Below the pieces are notes generated by a model that ran no database searches, was not told the origin of the DNA, and was given only the letters and a program-made list of their open reading frames with translations. Of a DNA stretch of 41,745 nt, positions 14,106-23,568 are shown piece after piece (within the stretch, counting starts at the first letter, position 1; every line of letters begins with the position of its first letter). The position numbers and the translations under genes were made by a program. The stretch is from an uncultured Bacteriovoracaceae bacterium (lineage in GTDB: Bacteria; Bdellovibrionota; UBA1018). The DNA lies in contig CAYOWB010000003.1 in assembly GCA_964407515.1 (NCBI GenBank), positions 1 through 41,745 on the forward strand. Reading direction: 5' to 3'.

Positions 14106-15428
14106 TCAGTATTTTCCTAAACGGATACGAAGAAAGCCTATGATTGTCATTTTGAGCAGAATAAGGCCGTGTCTGAAGCGGCTGATATTGGTCGCGCCAT
14201 AGCTTCGTGCTCGGTAATGAATAGGGACGGTGACGATGCCCAGTCCTAGTTCGGCGGCGGGAAAAAGAAGTTCAAAGTCGCCAAAGGGGTCGAAGTCGCC
14301 AAAGCGCTCGCGCCATCGGACGACGCGAGCATAGTCCTGTCGCGAAAGCAGCTTAGTGCCACAGAGTGAATCGCTCAAGCGTGTCTCCAGGGTGGTGCTG
14401 AGTAGCTTGGCGAAGAAGACATTCCCTAGATGGTTCAGGAAGCGCATCGCTTCGCCTTCCATGGGGTAGACCAAGCGGGATCCGTTCACAAAGTCGGCAA
14501 GGCCTCGATCATATGCGTCCAGGAACCGTCCTAGCATTTCCGGTGGCATGGTTAAGTCTGCATCCAATATGGTCAGGAGTTCGCCAGTCGCCTTTTGGAA
14601 GCCCAAGCGGACGGCATCGTTTTTTCCTCTGCCCGTTTGTTGAAACGTCTGGATTGAAAAACGATCCTGATAGGCCTTTTGCACCCGAAGAATTTCTTCC
14701 CACGTCCCGTCGGAGGAATGTCCCTCTACAAAGACGATTTCCACCTTACGGCCCAGATCCGGCATCCGCCTAAGTGCGTTCTCGATATTTCCCTTCTCGT
14801 TGCGAGCCGGAATGATAATCGAGACGGACGGCTTATGTGTTGAACTGCCGGGAACGATCGGCCGGAGCACCGCAATAAAGGCAAAACTCATCCAACGAAG
14901 AAGAGGGAGGCTAGTTAGAACCGAGTTCAGGATAGTGCCAAGTCCTAAGATCCGCCATGGACAATAGCCTACGCAGCGGGTCCGTACGACCTCGTAGCCA
15001 CTCAGAGCCGCGATTTCTAGGAGAGCGGTTCGGGTAATAAAGGTGCAGGGAAGCGCCCCTTTCCGGATCCCGAGTCGGTTTGCCAGTGAATAGAAGCCCC
15101 TGAGGTAAGGATTGTAAAGAACGGTAATCACCCGGTCTGTCCGCGTTAAGTTTTCCTTCAAGGTACTGAGCATTCCCTGGATATCGAGGGTGTGGTTCAG
15201 TGAGCCGTTGAGAAGGACCACTGAAGGACTCCCTGGTGCCGTCTGCTCCTTTGAGTCAAACTTTCCCTGATCCGAAAATGCCAGCTTCTCCTTGCAGTCG
15301 ATTCCGTTAAGGAGGAGGAGATCGTCGGTCTCCCGCCGATAGATCTGAACGCAACGCTCAGCAGTTCTAGTGATGACCGAGACCTCCGCGGCGAGGAGGC
15401 GATTGATATATGATCTCCAGTGTCCCAT
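14106..15428 (-). CDS. GT2 glycosyltransferase (DPM1/ALG5-like core) with an N-terminal degenerate methyltransferase-like domain and hydrophobic linker
   Basis: C-terminal half: VSIIIPARNEKGNIENAL, VFVEGHSSDGT, LTILDADLTMPPE, GSRLVYP ... CGTKLLSR. N-terminal ~190 aa: VVLLNGSLNHTLDIQGMLSTLKENL resembles methyltransferase motifs III/IV, but no GxGxG is present. Hydrophobic segment LGLGTILNSVLTSLPLLRWMSFAFIAVL. I prefer ATG 15428 over TTG 15479. Confidence 0.75.
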   Translation of the reverse strand: MGHWRSYINRLLAAEVSVITRTAERCVQIYRRETDDLLLLNGIDCKEKLAFSDQGKFDSKEQTAPGSPSVVLLNGSLNHTLDIQGMLSTLKENLTRTDRVITVLYNPYLRGFYSLANRLGIRKGALPCTFITRTALLEIAALSGYEVVRTRCVGYCPWRILGLGTILNSVLTSLPLLRWMSFAFIAVLRPIVPGSSTHKPSVSIIIPARNEKGNIENALRRMPDLGRKVEIVFVEGHSSDGTWEEILRVQKAYQDRFSIQTFQQTGRGKNDAVRLGFQKATGELLTILDADLTMPPEMLGRFLDAYDRGLADFVNGSRLVYPMEGEAMRFLNHLGNVFFAKLLSTTLETRLSDSLCGTKLLSRQDYARVVRWRERFGDFDPFGDFELLFPAAELGLGIVTVPIHYRARSYGATNISRFRHGLILLKMTIIGFLRIRLGKY

Positions 15429-15503
15429 GTTTAGAATTTCATACGATGCCTTCAGGCGAAGGCAAAGACTAAAAGGCAAAAGGCTTCATCCGGCTGCTTT
15501 GCA

Positions 15504-16817
15504 CTAACGGGGGCAGAGGGGCTTGTGTGCCTGAGCGGCCAGTCGTTCTGCGTCTGAAACTGCTACGCCGTTTCCGATGAAGTCGAATTCCGGGCGATTG
15601 TATAGGTCGGCTACGGGAGCAAAGTTGATGCAGTCCCTCCTGAAAGAAGCCGGGGAAGGAGCATTGTGCATTCTAAAGCTCTTGGCTGCCGGGAATAACA
15701 TCGCCACCAGGACCAGTCCAAAGACAGTCTCGAAGATTTTGGCGTATGGGCTGTACTCGCGGCCACTCAGGAAGAGCGCGAGAGTGAAAGTCATGAGGAA
15801 CAGGGAGGGGGCGTAGTATCTGAAGTCATTTGATGAAGAAGTGGAGGTAAGGAACGACAAGAATGACCCTAATGAAAATGTCACGGCGAACGCCAAGAAC
15901 GGCGACCTGAGGTTCCGGGTTGTCGCCTGATGGCAGAATACCGTGAAAACGCATACGGCGAGAAACGCGTGATACTTAAGCGCCGGAAGTGATGACATTA
16001 CCGCCCTTGCCCATAGGCTCCATTCGTGGTTCCGAAGCACGCTGTGTTGCCCGGCCATGGTCTTCATTAGGTCTAGACCTGACCAGTAATTAAGGGGGTC
16101 CACAGCTATGCTGATGAGATTCCCGGTGGCCAGTCCTAGTGCCAGCGGTATGAGTCCGCGCAATTGCCGAGGTGGAATTAGTCCAGGGATGAGACAGAGG
16201 ACCGTCGTGGCCGCCAGTGCGGCGACGGCGATGATCGTCCATTCGTTCTTTCCCAGGCCGAGGCCCGTGGCGCCCAAGAATAGAAGGGCCGCGGCTAGTC
16301 TCCGATTCTCCAGAAAACACGAAGCCCCAAGGCCTAGAATAAAGATGCCGTTGAGTAGTACGCCGACGGAATTGTCGATCTGCAGCATGCCGGAAGTAAG
16401 GATCGAAGGACGGGCGAATATGTAGCACAAGAATATGAGAAGCGAAGAGCGGAAGTTCGTGCTGAAAGTGAAGATGAAGGTAGCCGCGATGAGAAGTGGG
16501 ATGAGCGAAAATGCCGAAAAGGCCGTTCTCAGTGCAAACGTTTGTTCCAAGATGTGGCGGGGGACCAATTTCTGGGCTGCCGCTCCTGTTACCGCGATCA
16601 TCTTGTACATCGGACCCGGATGGCTAGGCGGGTTGTACAGTGGTGTTCCAGAGATCCGGGCTATCAACAGATAGTTGGGGCCGGGAGGGTTGTTCAGGAA
16701 GAGGTTCGCAAATAGGCCCTCTTCAAACACAAGCGGCTGGCTAAGGTGTGGAGCGCGGACAATGAAAAACGCCAGGGTAAGCCCAGCGATAGTGAAAATG
16801 AGGGAAAGTCGCTTCAT
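15504..16817 (-). CDS. Polytopic membrane protein, GT-C-like (candidate lipid-linked-sugar-dependent glycosyltransferase)
   Basis: 437 aa, at least 10 hydrophobic helices. After TM1: RAPHLSQPLVFEEGLFANLFLN, an acidic EE pair in the first loop. I cannot exclude a Wzy/WaaL-type polymerase or ligase by eye. Confidence 0.6.
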   Translation of the reverse strand: MKRLSLIFTIAGLTLAFFIVRAPHLSQPLVFEEGLFANLFLNNPPGPNYLLIARISGTPLYNPPSHPGPMYKMIAVTGAAAQKLVPRHILEQTFALRTAFSAFSLIPLLIAATFIFTFSTNFRSSLLIFLCYIFARPSILTSGMLQIDNSVGVLLNGIFILGLGASCFLENRRLAAALLFLGATGLGLGKNEWTIIAVAALAATTVLCLIPGLIPPRQLRGLIPLALGLATGNLISIAVDPLNYWSGLDLMKTMAGQHSVLRNHEWSLWARAVMSSLPALKYHAFLAVCVFTVFCHQATTRNLRSPFLAFAVTFSLGSFLSFLTSTSSSNDFRYYAPSLFLMTFTLALFLSGREYSPYAKIFETVFGLVLVAMLFPAAKSFRMHNAPSPASFRRDCINFAPVADLYNRPEFDFIGNGVAVSDAERLAAQAHKPLCPR

Positions 16818-22575: not shown

Positions 22576-22599
22576 TATTCGAACTGATCATTGGGCGAT

Positions 22600-23568
22600 A
22601 TGATGGAGAAGAAAAAGGTACTAATTGTAGCGCCGGCCTTTAACGAGGTAGCTGTGCTGCCCGCTTTTTTAGATGGGTTTTATTCATTGAGGGAGCAGGT
22701 GGCTGGCGGGGTCGACTTACGGCTCTTGGTGGTCGATGACGGATCGAACGACGGTACAGATCAGCTACTAAGAGACGCGGTCAAGCGGCGCCCAGATGTG
22801 GTTTCCTCTATTTCGCTCTTGGGTAATTTCGGGCACCAGGCAGCTCTTATTGCGGGCATGTACTGTGGCAGGAAGTGGCCAGACGCCATTGTCACAATGG
22901 ATTGTGATCTCGAGCATCCGTTCGCCGTTATCCCGAAGATGATTGAAATCTGGGAGAGAGACCGAGCGGTGTTGGTGAACTCTTTGCGAAGTGTCGATCA
23001 TCGACTCCCTGTTATGAAGAGGTTATTTTCAAAAGCGTTTTACATTGTAGCGAGACGGATGACTGGGATCAGTATTCGCGAGGGGAATGCTGACTTTCGC
23101 CTCTGGGATGCTAGCGTGATCAGGAGCTTGGCAAGAGGCTTGTTCTCTGTTGGATCGCTTCGGATTTTCGCTAGCTGGTTGCCTGGGAAAAAGTCTGAAG
23201 TGCATTACGATCAACATGTGCAAGTCGGGCGCCGAAGCCGGTTCACTCTCGGGAAGAACCTTGAGCTAGCTTCAGTCAGTCTCGTTAGGTTTTCGAGCTT
23301 GCCGTTGAAGGCCATTCTCATATCTGGAGGATTCGGCCTGATTTTCTCAATGGTGTATGCGCATTATGTGGTCTGGATGTTCTATCGGGGGATGGCGTTG
23401 CAAGGCTGGAGTAGTACTGTCCTCCTAATTCTTTTCCTTGGTTCGCTGAATCTATTTGCCCTTGGTATCATGGCTACATACCTTCAAAGACTTGTGTTTT
23501 CTAAAGATTTGCCGATGTTTCTCGTGCGGACTGCAGAGGGAAGCGTTCTTTCGGTCGATGAAAATTAG
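22600..23568 (+). CDS. GT2 polyprenyl-phosphate glycosyltransferase (GtrB/ArnC/DPM1-like)
   Basis: VLIVAPAFNEVAVLPAF, LLVVDDGSNDGT, FGHQAALIAGM, TMDCDLEHP. Two C-terminal TM helices follow (ILISGGFGLIFSMVYAHYVVWMF; TVLLILFLGSLNLFALGIMATYL). This is the GtrB architecture. Confidence 0.8.
   Translation: MMEKKKVLIVAPAFNEVAVLPAFLDGFYSLREQVAGGVDLRLLVVDDGSNDGTDQLLRDAVKRRPDVVSSISLLGNFGHQAALIAGMYCGRKWPDAIVTMDCDLEHPFAVIPKMIEIWERDRAVLVNSLRSVDHRLPVMKRLFSKAFYIVARRMTGISIREGNADFRLWDASVIRSLARGLFSVGSLRIFASWLPGKKSEVHYDQHVQVGRRSRFTLGKNLELASVSLVRFSSLPLKAILISGGFGLIFSMVYAHYVVWMFYRGMALQGWSSTVLLILFLGSLNLFALGIMATYLQRLVFSKDLPMFLVRTAEGSVLSVDEN

What the first reader, a model, noticed from the sequence alone, without database searches (positions are those of the whole stretch)
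14106..23568. Battery of six GT-C-like membrane proteins plus two polyprenyl-phosphate-type GT2 synthases inside an ABC-transporter glycan locus
Seen in sequence:
- ORFs 410-2173, 9688-10917 (degraded), 15504-16817, 16915-18486, 18679-20110 (split) and 20977-22575 are 410-590 aa polytopic proteins.
- Each has an acidic pair in the first loop after TM1: VNDDWQY, QGDSQYY, VFEEGLF, DPTDGDM, VADDFCN, IVDDHEI.
- 22600-23568 is a GT2 with DDGSNDGT and DCDLEHP followed by two C-terminal TM helices, which is the GtrB/ArnC/DPM1 architecture.
- 14106-15428 has a DPM1/ALG5-like GT2 core flanked by hydrophobic segments.

Established knowledge: GT-C enzymes use polyprenyl-phosphate-linked sugars on the outer face of the membrane, and GtrB-type GT2 enzymes make those donors. 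To my knowledge, O-antigen loci usually contain none or one such pair.

Inference: the glycan exported by Wzm/Wzt, or another periplasmic acceptor such as a protein, may be extensively built or decorated outside the cytoplasm. That logic is closer to actinobacterial arabinogalactan/LAM assembly than to classical ABC-dependent O-antigen synthesis. I saw no GtrA-like small flippase. This is the most plausible candidate for an undescribed system in the window.
Basis: partly seen in the sequence, partly recalled or inferred. Interest (0 to 1): 0.72.

Follow-up and report, generated by a model that had tools for sequence, protein, structure and literature searches.

The report
Clustered periplasmic sugar-adding enzyme modules
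This glycan-export locus carries two complete, widely conserved gene modules (a lipid-sugar maker, a membrane GT-C enzyme and a methyltransferase) for decorating a sugar polymer outside the cytoplasm; the strategy is known, but the enzyme families have no Pfam or NCBIfam model.

Summary
The window holds six polytopic genes with an acidic motif just after the first membrane helix, plus two GT2 genes, beside Wzm/Wzt. Only four of the six are intact. M2 (9688-10917) is a frameshifted pseudogene, and M5 (18679-20110, DUF6056) is split by a perfect 16-bp tandem duplication.

M3 and M6 have no Pfam hit. AlphaFold models (pLDDT 94 and 81) match only GT-C enzymes such as ArnT, AglB/STT3, PMT, Aft and ALG9. 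M1 is a divergent PMT_2 relative, but its homologs elsewhere are stand-alone genes. M4 is nearly an orphan and is only probably GT-C.

G2 is a GtrB/ArnC-type synthase (GtrB 3e-27, including the C-terminal helices). G1 is a DPMS/ArnC-like GT2 fused to a degenerate methyltransferase domain.

Both pairs recur across phyla. G1-M3 is adjacent or nearly so in 5 of 8 genomes, once with the same M3-G1-Gmd-Fcl order. G2-like GT2 sits directly upstream of the M6 homolog (at most a methyltransferase and one small ORF between) in 9 loci, four of them with a methyltransferase between.

This is the known multi-component transmembrane glycosylation logic; S. mutans SccN/M and SccP/Q are a direct two-pair precedent. 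It is not arabinogalactan-like assembly. What is new is the enzyme families and the recurrent methyltransferase.

The parts
410..2173 (+). M1: intact 587-aa polytopic protein, a divergent PMT_2/ArnT-like GT-C candidate. Possibly a flanking core gene rather than part of the variable locus.
   Evidence: No Pfam or NCBIfam hit of its own. It has 41 homologs, and 7 of 36 aligned members hit PMT_2 (best 1.2e-8). N43-D44-D45-W46 and R190 are invariant or nearly so. Homologs in L031 and L032 are stand-alone genes.
9688..10917 (-). M2: pseudogene of a PMT_2-like membrane protein.
   Evidence: Two in-frame stops; the QGDSQYY motif is in another frame. PMT_2 E 1.5e-3, 19.2 bits, below the 26.1-bit cut-off.
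12082..14043 (-). Fcl-like epimerase/reductase (12082-13017) and GDP-mannose 4,6-dehydratase Gmd (13084-14043). These are candidate suppliers of the GDP-sugar used by G1.
   Evidence: Pfam GDP_Man_Dehyd 3e-139 and Epimerase 3.6e-64. The same M3-G1-Gmd-Fcl order occurs in Veillonellaceae locus L007.
14106..15479 (-). G1: degenerate methyltransferase-like domain + hydrophobic linker + DPMS/ArnC-like GT2. Candidate polyprenyl-phosphate sugar synthase partnered with M3.
   Evidence: Glycos_transf_2 8.7e-23 and AglJ 2e-23. PDB: PfDPMS 1.6e-14, ArnC 6.6e-11, GtrB 3e-7. It carries LDADLTMPPE. The family alignment shows GCGxG in relatives but not here. It is adjacent or nearly adjacent to M3 homologs in 5 of 8 genomes.
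15504..16817 (-). M3: intact 437-aa GT-C-fold enzyme of a family with no Pfam model.
   Evidence: 188 relatives in 1.84e9 representatives. AlphaFold pLDDT 94.2, pTM 0.92. The top 24 Foldseek PDB hits are all GT-C, each at probability 0.98 or higher. E32/E33, H66, D148, K190, E192 and R333 are conserved.
16915..18486 (+). M4: intact 523-aa polytopic near-orphan; probable GT-C, unproven.
   Evidence: One homolog in 5.8e9 proteins (E 2.8e-5), which keeps PTDGD. hhalign gives 60% to the M6 family over 134 collinear columns, 62% to the M3 family over 30 columns and 6% to the M1 family. NCBIfam AZOBR_p60025 scores 0.005, far below cut-off.
18679..20110 (+). M5: DUF6056 membrane protein gene inactivated by a 16-bp tandem duplication at 19549-19581.
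   Evidence: TRF finds 2.1 copies at 100% identity. The restored 471-aa ORF hits DUF6056 end to end at E 1.3e-35. Two M3-family members also hit DUF6056.
20189..20968 (+). Class I SAM methyltransferase belonging to the G2/M6 module.
   Evidence: Methyltransf_23 1.5e-23. A methyltransferase lies between the G2-like GT2 and the M6 homolog in L010, L015, L017 (E 1e-91 to this gene) and L018.
20977..22575 (+). M6: intact 532-aa GT-C-fold enzyme of a family with no Pfam model.
   Evidence: AlphaFold pLDDT 80.6, pTM 0.82. All Foldseek hits with probability 0.98 or higher are GT-C: STT3, Pmt4, AglB, ALG9, ALG12, Pmt1/2 and PglB. D46-D47-H48-E49, R82, R84 and K204-E205-N206 are invariant. UniRef labels two relatives 'RgtA/B/C/D-like domain'.
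22600..23568 (+). G2: GtrB/ArnC-type polyprenyl-phosphate glycosyltransferase with two C-terminal TM helices; partner of M6.
   Evidence: PDB: GtrB sll0501 3.4e-27 aligned through the TM helices, ArnC 3.6e-14 over the full length, DPMS 7e-8. NCBIfam: PgfS 1.4e-35 over the full length. A G2-like GT2 sits directly upstream of the M6 homolog, with at most a methyltransferase and one small ORF between, in 9 loci.
23832..27614 (+). Wzm permease (23832-24683) and Wzt ATPase (26691-27614) of an ABC glycan exporter, with a GT4 and an FkbM methyltransferase between them.
   Evidence: ABC2_membrane 5.5e-19 and ABC_tran 4.2e-22. Wzt/TagH-type NCBIfam hits. Wzm/Wzt also lie beside the G1-M3 pair in L002, and Wzm lies near an M6 homolog in L013.

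Best explanation
The window is an ABC-transporter-dependent (Wzm/Wzt) glycan locus whose backbone is made in the cytoplasm by many Leloir-type GTs. At least two self-contained post-export glycosylation modules of the 'multi-component transmembrane glycosylation' kind are embedded in it.

Module A is G1 + M3, with Gmd and Fcl next to it. Module B is methyltransferase 20189 + M6 + G2.

Proposed mechanism for each module:
1. The membrane-associated GT2 transfers one sugar from a nucleotide sugar to polyprenyl phosphate on the cytoplasmic face.
2. The lipid-linked sugar is flipped by a protein encoded elsewhere.
3. The GT-C enzyme, using the conserved acidic motif in its first periplasmic loop, transfers that sugar onto the exported glycan as a side branch or cap.

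M4 is a probable additional GT-C with no dedicated synthase. M5 (DUF6056) and M2 (PMT_2-like) are inactivated members. M1 is a PMT_2-related enzyme that may serve another acceptor.

Shown here: gene integrity, GT-C fold of M3 and M6, GtrB/ArnC/DPMS similarity of G2 and G1, and conserved synthase-GT-C adjacency across phyla.

Inferred: donor sugars, acceptor, flipping, and any role of the methyltransferases.
For: - GT-C fold. M3 model pLDDT 94.2; the top 24 PDB hits are all GT-C (ArnT, AglB, AftA/B, DPY19, ALG9, STT3, Pmt4, PglB), each at probability 0.98 or higher. M6 model pLDDT 80.6; every hit at probability 0.98 or higher is GT-C.
- Conserved acidic motifs after TM1 in the family alignments.
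- N-in topology. N termini are K/R-rich. GT2-M3 fusion proteins P0004 and P0084 exist.
- G2 matches GtrB at 3.4e-27 through both C-terminal helices, and ArnC and PgfS over the full length.
- The best solved relatives of G1 are DPMS, ArnC and GtrB, and it carries DADLxxPPE.
- Conserved pairing. G1 homologs (E 1e-88 to 1e-103) lie next to or within two genes of M3 homologs in 5 of 8 GTDB loci from Anaerolineales, Planctomycetota, Brevinematales, Veillonellaceae and an unclassified bacterium. L007 has M3-G1-Gmd-Fcl as in the window.
- A G2-like GT2 lies directly upstream of the M6 homolog, with at most a methyltransferase and one small ORF between, in L001, L010, L014-L018, L023 and L027.
- L018 also has a small EamA/TMEM234-like membrane ORF between the methyltransferase and the GT-C. 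It is a weak flippase candidate.
- Wzm/Wzt lie next to the pair in L002.
- Precedents for this logic, including unlinked flippases: PMC11754754, PMC8035078 and PMC11127046.
Against: - No flippase gene is present in the window.
- No biochemical data exist, and the donor and acceptor are unknown.
- Foldseek E-values are only about 1e-3 and TM-scores are 0.41-0.57. The fold call rests on the exclusivity and consistency of GT-C hits, not on a single strong match.
- G1 lacks the two C-terminal TM helices of GtrB and could be an ordinary GT2 acting on a lipid-linked glycan.
- In 3 of 8 M3 loci no G1- or G2-like gene was found within 10 kb.
- A more distant M6 subgroup (L019, L021, L022, L024) lacks an adjacent synthase.
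- M4's assignment rests on 60% hhalign probabilities.
- M5's GT-C status rests on DUF6056 membership and cross-hits only.
- The organism is unknown. Relatives include monoderm or CPR lineages, so 'O antigen' and 'periplasm' may not apply literally.
Confidence: 0.65

Rival explanations
1. The GT-C enzymes glycosylate something other than the Wzm/Wzt-exported polymer. Candidates are secreted, S-layer or membrane proteins (PMT/PglB-like protein glycosylation), lipid A/core as with ArnT and RgtA-D, or another wall polymer. Their position in the locus would then reflect shared sugar-nucleotide supply only.
For: Pmt4, Pmt1/2, STT3/AglB and PglB are among the best structural matches for M3 and M6. 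M1 and M2 relate to PMT_2. M1 relatives and the M4 relative sit outside glycan loci. G2's best NCBIfam match is PgfS. UniRef labels M6 relatives RgtA/B/C/D-like.
Against: The G1-M3 pair sits beside Wzm/Wzt in L002 as well as in the window, and an M6 relative lies near Wzm in L013. Foldseek cannot discriminate acceptor type at TM 0.4-0.5. No acceptor protein gene is evident in the window.
Confidence: 0.15
2. The glycan is extensively built or polymerised outside the cytoplasm by a battery of GT-C enzymes, as in actinobacterial arabinogalactan/LAM assembly.
For: There is an unusually high density of GT-C-type genes (four intact, two decayed) and two lipid-sugar synthases within 24 kb. AftA, AftB and EmbB are among the structural hits to M3.
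Against: The six are unrelated families, not an expanded paralogous set. About eleven cytoplasmic GT2, GT4, GT11 and GT1-type genes beyond G1 and G2, plus an ABC exporter, are present to build and export a finished polymer. Only two synthases are present. Two of the six genes are dead. Each conserved module elsewhere occurs singly, as expected for side-chain decoration.
Confidence: 0.04
3. The cluster is mostly a graveyard or recombination hot spot. G1 is an ordinary GT2 that extends a lipid-linked glycan, several of the membrane proteins are non-catalytic or inactive, and at most one module (G2-M6) is a working lipid-sugar/GT-C pair.
For: There are two clear pseudogenes. G1's methyltransferase domain is degenerate and G1 lacks GtrB-type C-terminal helices. 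GC drops from 0.58-0.60 to 0.50-0.53 across 10-36 kb, as in horizontally assembled glycan loci. M4 is a near-orphan.
Against: G1 and M3 are both intact, keep all family-invariant residues, and are a conserved pair across at least four phyla. GT2-M3 fusions exist. G1's nearest solved relatives are all polyprenyl-phosphate GTs.
Confidence: 0.1

Closest known systems
Streptococcus mutans SCC side-chain glucosylation: SccN/SccM and SccP/SccQ (PMC11754754). The related S. pyogenes GacI/J/K/L system is known to me from memory and was not read here.
   Same: The polymer is made on the cytoplasmic face and exported by an ABC transporter. Two separate GtrB-like lipid-sugar synthases are each paired with its own GT-C in the same locus. 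The flippase is not identified in the locus.
   Different: There is no detectable sequence similarity of M3, M4 or M6 to any Pfam family. G1 has a fused methyltransferase-like domain and no C-terminal TM pair. A methyltransferase is part of the conserved module. There are more GT-C-type genes here (four intact plus two pseudogenes). The organism and glycan are unknown.
GtrA/GtrB/GtrC O-antigen glucosylation of Shigella/Salmonella, and the Synechocystis GtrB structure 5EKP
   Same: G2 aligns to GtrB from the GT-A core through both C-terminal TM helices at E 3.4e-27. The synthase gene is adjacent to a polytopic transferase.
   Different: There is no GtrA in the window. No relatives of M3, M4 or M6 were found in viral contigs. 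From my own knowledge, Gtr clusters are typically prophage-borne. Here the modules sit inside the main biosynthesis locus next to Wzm/Wzt.
Lactococcus lactis CsdAB, CsdCD, CsdEF with the single unlinked flippase CflA (reviewed in PMC8035078)
   Same: Several GT-A/GT-C pairs occur in one genome and decorate different polymers. One flippase encoded elsewhere serves all pairs. This explains how a locus without a flippase can work.
   Different: The L. lactis pairs are dispersed over the chromosome. Here the genes are packed into one locus, and they belong to different, unannotated families.
ArnC/ArnT and Rhizobium RgtA-D (PMT_2-type GT-C enzymes acting on lipid A/core)
   Same: G2 aligns over the full length with ArnC. 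ArnT is the second-best structural match of M3. M1 and M2 relate to PMT_2. M6 relatives are labelled RgtA/B/C/D-like by UniRef.
   Different: M1, M3, M4 and M6 themselves fail the PMT_2 model even at E <= 10. No Arn pathway context (ArnA/B/D/E/F) is present.
Citrobacter youngae O1/O2 pentofuranose three-component system (GT136; PMC11127046), and mycobacterial DPA-dependent Aft/Emb enzymes
   Same: An exported O-polysaccharide receives post-polymerisation extracytoplasmic side chains from a polyprenyl-phosphate sugar. The lipid-linked sugar can be tailored (epimerised) before flipping.
   Different: That synthase is a PRPP-dependent PPPRS unrelated to GtrB-type GT2, and its flippase is a MATE protein encoded in the locus. 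Here the synthases are GT2 enzymes, and the associated tailoring candidates are methyltransferases rather than epimerases.

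Membership tests
GT-C fold glycosyltransferases | Predicted or solved fold matches GT-C enzymes: TM core plus a first extracytoplasmic loop with juxtamembrane helices. | tested here: met
   M3: pLDDT 94.2; the top 24 Foldseek PDB hits are all GT-C at probability 0.98-1.00, TM 0.37-0.57. M6: pLDDT 80.6; every hit at probability 0.98 or higher is GT-C, with TM 0.28-0.44 and 0.41-0.44 for the full-length matches. Not tested for M1, M2, M4 or M5 because the structure jobs were exhausted.
GT-C fold glycosyltransferases | Conserved acidic motif in the first loop after TM1, on the extracytoplasmic side. 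| tested here: met
   The motif is invariant or nearly so in the M1, M3 and M6 families and kept in M4's single relative. The side is inferred from K/R-rich N termini and from GT2-M3 fusions. No topology predictor or experiment was available.
GT-C fold glycosyltransferases | M4 specifically: detectable homology to a GT-C family. | tested here: inconclusive
   No Pfam or PDB hit. hhalign gives 60% to the M6 family over 134 collinear columns, 62% to the M3 family over 30 columns and 6% to the M1 family.
GT-C fold glycosyltransferases | Uses a polyprenyl-phosphate-linked sugar as donor. | not testable with these tools
   Supported only by conserved adjacency to GtrB/DPMS-like GT2 genes.
GtrB/ArnC/DPMS-type polyprenyl-phosphate glycosyltransferase (GT2) | GT-A core with DxD in a D[AC]DL-x-x-P motif, and sequence similarity to characterised members. 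| tested here: met
   G2: GtrB 3.4e-27, ArnC 3.6e-14, DPMS 7e-8, motif DCDLEHP. G1: DPMS 1.6e-14, ArnC 6.6e-11, GtrB 3e-7, motif DADLTMPPE. Both score far below the NCBIfam equivalog cut-offs for PgfS, ArnC and AglJ. They are relatives, not orthologs.
GtrB/ArnC/DPMS-type polyprenyl-phosphate glycosyltransferase (GT2) | Membrane anchoring by two C-terminal TM helices (GtrB/ArnC architecture). | tested here: met
   For G2: hydrophobic helices at 234-252 and 274-292 align to those of GtrB. For G1 this feature is NOT met. It has one hydrophobic stretch N-terminal to the GT2 domain (187-205) and only an amphipathic tail.
Three-component / multi-component transmembrane glycosylation system | Lipid-sugar synthase gene and GT-C gene functionally linked (adjacent, conserved). 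| tested here: met
   G1-M3 in 5 of 8 genome loci. G2-like/M6-like in 9 loci, with gene order varying.
Three-component / multi-component transmembrane glycosylation system | Dedicated flippase (GtrA/SMR-type, Wzx or MATE). | tested here: not met
   No small multi-TM ORF and no Wzx or MATE hit in the window. Only 41.7 kb of a 59-kb contig was visible. Unlinked flippases are precedented. L018 has a weak EamA/TMEM234-like ORF inside the module.
Pfam PMT_2 (PF13231) | Score above the gathering threshold of 26.1 bits. | tested here: not met
   M2 scores 19.2 bits. M1, M3, M4 and M6 have no hit at E <= 10. Some relatives pass E <= 0.01: 7 of 36 in the M1 family, 1 of 13 in the M6 family and 1 of 62 in the M3 family.
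Pfam DUF6056 (PF19528) | Score above the gathering threshold of 27 bits over the full model. | tested here: met
   Restored M5 scores 123.4 bits, covering model positions 58-438 of 442. As found in the window the gene is split and presumably inactive.
   No such Pfam hit for any of the six. No such structure appears among the listed hits for M3 or M6. The only Acyl_transf_3 protein is the separate gene at 10922-12112.

The most novel reading that the evidence does not exclude
Two unannotated GT-C families (M3-type and M6-type) each form a conserved module with a dedicated polyprenyl-phosphate sugar synthase and a SAM methyltransferase. The methyltransferase is fused to the synthase in the G1 family and is a separate gene in the G2/M6 module. 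In this reading it O-methylates the lipid-linked monosaccharide on the cytoplasmic face. The GT-C then installs a pre-methylated sugar cap or branch on an ABC-exported glycan outside the cytoplasm. This would be a tailoring step on a polyprenyl-phosphate sugar comparable to ArnD deformylation or DprE1/E2 and ORF13 epimerisation. I found no description of such a step for methylation.
Probability: 0.15. Interest if true: 0.7.

Novelty: new variant of a known kind. Interest (0 to 1): 0.5.

Why it matters
Extracytoplasmic decoration by lipid-sugar/GT-C modules is a main source of surface-glycan diversity, affecting serotypes, phage receptors and immune recognition. Current annotation misses most of it here: M1, M3, M4 and M6 have no Pfam or significant NCBIfam hit.

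This locus supplies two module types that are conserved from CPR bacteria and Chloroflexota to Planctomycetota and Veillonellaceae. They could seed new family models (and possibly CAZy families) and improve prediction of glycan decoration in uncultured bacteria.

The recurrent methyltransferase, fused or adjacent, is a testable lead to a new tailoring step on lipid-linked sugars.

The two freshly inactivated genes, one by a 16-bp duplication, illustrate rapid on/off turnover of decoration genes within one locus.

Tried and rejected
- Exact look-ups of G2 and M3 in the gene-position index found nothing. The proteins are in the protein collection, from an unnamed 59,119-bp NCBI contig, so the organism stayed unidentified.
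- All-vs-all BLASTP and phmmer among the six proteins and against all fetched relatives showed no cross-family similarity. Recent paralogy is rejected.
- Pfam at E <= 10 and NCBIfam gave nothing for M1, M3, M4 and M6 apart from one insignificant NCBIfam hit for M4 (AZOBR_p60025, E 0.005).
- Sequence and profile searches of the PDB with M1, M3, M4, M5 and M6 or their family profiles gave nothing meaningful.
- hhalign between family profiles gave only 25-62% probabilities. The alignments were collinear: the K/R-x-E/Q motif near residue 190-205 and the R-Y-x-x-P motif.
It was redone with 12 sequences.
I obtained protein ids for nine M6 relatives by exact cluster look-up and built the MSA from those.
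- The neighbourhood of M4's only relative is uninformative.
- Viral-contig scans for M3, M4 and M6 relatives were empty, so a phage-borne serotype-conversion origin is not supported.
- Global positive-inside counting on crude hydropathy segments was unreliable because helices were missed. Only the N-terminal segment charges were used.
- Literature searches for DUF6056 and AZOBR_p60025 gave nothing useful.

Full report
**What is in the sequence.** ORF listing and translation confirm polytopic ORFs at these positions:
- 410-2173 (M1, 587 aa)
- 15504-16817 (M3, 437 aa)
- 16915-18486 (M4, 523 aa)
- 20938/20977-22575 (M6, 545/532 aa)
- a split gene at 18679-19686 plus 19553-20110 (M5)
- a degraded gene at 9688-10917 (M2)

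M5 is interrupted by a perfect 16-bp tandem duplication (GGAAGTGTATTTATTG, 19549-19581). Removing one copy gives a 471-aa protein that matches Pfam DUF6056 end to end (E 1.3e-35). M2 has two in-frame stops. Its N-terminal motif QGDSQYY lies in a different frame from the body, so at least two frame changes are needed. Its only family signal is PMT_2 at 19 bits, below threshold. The tally is therefore four intact genes and two dead ones.

**Locus context.** Pfam and NCBIfam annotation of the whole window shows a large glycan locus:
- a CDP-3,6-dideoxyhexose gene set at 3.2-9.7 kb
- Gmd and Fcl
- Wzm (23832-24683) and Wzt (26691-27614)
- formyltransferase, aminotransferase and amidotransferase genes
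- about eleven cytoplasmic GT2, GT4, GT11 and GT1-type glycosyltransferases beyond G1 and G2
- four free methyltransferase genes and an Acyl_transf_3 protein

GC drops from 0.58-0.60 to 0.50-0.53 between about 10 and 36 kb.

**Are the membrane proteins GT-C?** The six show no pairwise similarity. M1, M3, M4 and M6 hit no Pfam model even at E <= 10, and none of the five searched (M1, M3-M6) gave a meaningful PDB sequence match.

*M3.* An exhaustive HMMER search found 188 relatives. A 62-sequence alignment shows position 33 acidic in every sequence, E32 in 81%, and H66, D148, K190, E192 and R333 invariant or nearly so. AlphaFold2 on this alignment gave pLDDT 94.2 and pTM 0.92. Foldseek against the PDB returned, as its top 24 hits, only GT-C enzymes: AglB, ArnT, AftB, AftA, DPY19, ALG9, STT3, Pmt4 and PglB. 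Probabilities were 0.98-1.00 and TM-scores 0.37-0.57. Unrelated transporters appeared only at probability 0.25 or below.

*M6.* The word-indexed search found a single relative. A metagenome scan with the two-sequence alignment found 19 loci. Exact cluster look-ups turned nine of these into usable protein ids. The 13-sequence alignment keeps D46-D47-H48-E49, R82, R84 and K204-E205-N206 invariant. It gave a model with pLDDT 80.6 and pTM 0.82. All of its hits at probability 0.98 or higher are again GT-C: STT3, Pmt4, AglB, ALG9, ALG12, Pmt1/2 and PglB.

*M1.* It has 41 relatives. Seven of 36 aligned members reach PMT_2 (best 1.2e-8), and N43-D44-D45-W46 is invariant or nearly so. I read M1 as a divergent PMT_2/ArnT-like enzyme. 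This is a homology inference; its fold was not modelled.

*M4.* It is almost an orphan, with one relative at E 2.8e-5 that keeps PTDGD. Profile comparisons give 60% to the M6 family over 134 collinear columns, 62% to the M3 family over 30 columns, and 6% to the M1 family. It is probable GT-C, not shown.

*M5.* Its GT-C status rests on DUF6056 membership and on two M3-family members that also hit DUF6056. My recollection that Pfam files DUF6056 in the GT-C clan is from memory and was not tested.

**Topology.** The N-terminal segments before TM1 carry 2-6 K/R and 0-1 D/E. Two natural proteins, P0004 and P0084, fuse a cytoplasmic GT2 domain to the N terminus of an M3 domain. Both facts place the loop after TM1 outside the cytoplasm, as in solved GT-C enzymes. 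No dedicated topology predictor was available.

**The two GT2 proteins.** G2 (22600-23568) aligns to Synechocystis GtrB (5EKP) at E 3.4e-27 from the GT-A core through both C-terminal helices. It aligns to ArnC over the full length (3.6e-14) and to P. furiosus DPMS (7e-8). It also aligns to the PgfS model over the full length (1.4e-35, below the equivalog cut-off).

G1 (14106-15479) has a GT2 domain whose best solved relatives are DPMS (1.6e-14), ArnC and GtrB, with the motif DADLTMPPE. Its first ~185 residues are soluble, not hydrophobic. Aligned with five relatives, they correspond to a class I SAM methyltransferase domain. The GCGxG loop is present in L002, L004 and L005 but lost in the window copy and in L003 and L007. 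A single proline-containing hydrophobic stretch (187-205) joins the domains. Both domains need cytoplasmic substrates, so I infer a re-entrant or interfacial anchor rather than a spanning helix.

**Conserved modules.** A GTDB scan with an M3 alignment gave eight loci from Anaerolineales, Planctomycetota, Brevinematales, Veillonellaceae, Gammaproteobacteria and others. In five of them a G1 homolog (E 1e-88 to 1e-103) lies next to the M3 homolog or is separated from it only by methyltransferase genes. L007 has M3-G1-Gmd-Fcl in the same order as the window. L002 also has Wzm and Wzt close by.

For M6, a G2-like GT2 lies directly upstream of the M6 homolog, with at most a methyltransferase and one small ORF between, in L001, L010, L014, L015, L016, L017, L018, L023 and L027. 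A class I methyltransferase lies between them in L010, L015, L017 and L018. The L017 copy matches window gene 20189-20968 at E 1e-91. L018 additionally has a 139-aa EamA/TMEM234-like membrane ORF inside the module. It scores below Pfam cut-offs and is only a flippase lead.

The window order (methyltransferase-M6-G2) differs from the order elsewhere (G2-methyltransferase-M6). This argues for functional coupling rather than inherited synteny. In contrast, M1 relatives and the M4 relative sit alone among unrelated genes. No locus recovered elsewhere repeats the multi-GT-C cluster.

**Mechanism.** The best-supported reading is two complete post-export glycosylation modules inside an ABC-transporter-dependent locus. 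G1, possibly fed by Gmd/Fcl with a GDP-sugar, and G2 each load one sugar onto polyprenyl phosphate. The lipid-sugar is flipped by a protein not encoded in the window; no small multi-TM ORF is present. M3 and M6 then transfer the sugar to the exported glycan through the acidic first loop. The donors, the acceptor and the flipping step are inferences. M4 may be a further transferase sharing a donor. M5 and M2 are inactivated. M1 may act on another acceptor.

**Comparison with known systems.** The logic is the three-component or multi-component transmembrane glycosylation system (PMC8035078, PMC11127046).
- The S. mutans SCC locus is a close precedent. An ABC-exported rhamnan is decorated by two synthase/GT-C pairs, SccN/SccM and SccP/SccQ, and its flippases are still unidentified (PMC11754754).
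- L. lactis has three pairs that share one unlinked flippase.

The arabinogalactan/LAM analogy is not favoured, because a full set of cytoplasmic GTs is present and each module occurs singly elsewhere.

What differs from the described systems:
- the GT-C families themselves, which have no Pfam model
- the G1 architecture of a methyltransferase domain fused to GT2
- the recurrent methyltransferase in both modules, for which I found no literature
- the density of GT-C-type genes in one locus

**Verdict.** This is a new variant of a known kind, of moderate interest (0.5). The most novel reading still open is methylation of the lipid-linked sugar before transfer (probability about 0.15).

Noticed in passing
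window 19549-19581: A perfect 16-bp tandem duplication (GGAAGTGTATTTATTG, 2.1 copies) frameshifts the DUF6056 gene. This is a recent inactivation, a slippage-type on/off switch, or an assembly artefact.
   Followed up: partly
window 3232-9680: A gene set for a CDP-3,6-dideoxyhexose: nucleotidyltransferase, CDP-glucose 4,6-dehydratase (504 bits, above cut-off), RfbH (692 bits, above cut-off), an FAD/NAD reductase, an RmlC-like epimerase and an SDR. The glycan probably contains a dideoxyhexose.
   Followed up: partly
window 29120-34057: Formyltransferase, PseC/LegC-like aminotransferase, GFO/IDH/MocA oxidoreductase and a 646-aa AsnB-like amidotransferase. These suggest an N-formylated amino sugar and/or an amidated uronic acid in the glycan.
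   Followed up: no
window 1-10000 versus 10000-36000: GC content falls from 0.58-0.60 to 0.50-0.53 and recovers to about 0.54 after 36 kb. The central part of the locus, including all modules except M1, looks compositionally distinct.
   Followed up: no
window 14106-15479; L002:7803-9266, L004:7137-8564, L005:2883-4328: The G1 family is a methyltransferase-GT2 fusion. The SAM-binding GCGxG loop is intact in three relatives but lost in the window copy, L003 and L007, while the rest of the domain is kept.
   Followed up: partly
P0004 (708 aa) and P0084 (773 aa), relatives of M3: These are natural fusions of an N-terminal cytoplasmic GT2 domain to the M3-type GT-C domain. P0115 instead carries a long extra N-terminal region of unknown nature.
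   Followed up: partly
L018:5555-5974: A 139-aa membrane ORF with weak EamA/TMEM234 similarity sits between the methyltransferase and the M6-type GT-C. It is a possible lipid-sugar flippase of the DMT/ArnE-F kind. No counterpart exists in the window.
   Followed up: no
window 26691-27614: Wzt is only 307 aa, and the only Pfam domain hits lie at residues 59-190 (ABC_tran, with a weak AAA_21 hit inside it). No extra C-terminal carbohydrate-binding domain was detected, so export may not depend on recognition of a chain-terminal cap.
   Followed up: no
L031 (Oligoflexia MAG JAMPXJ010000027.1) and L032: The closest M1 relatives (45% and 37% identity) are stand-alone genes among housekeeping genes. 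L031 also has a separate GT87-family gene 4 kb away.
   Followed up: partly
window 10922-12112: An Acyl_transf_3 membrane protein lies between the M2 pseudogene and Fcl and overlaps Fcl by 31 bp. It is a likely O-acetyltransferase for the glycan, and a seventh polytopic protein that is not GT-C.
   Followed up: no
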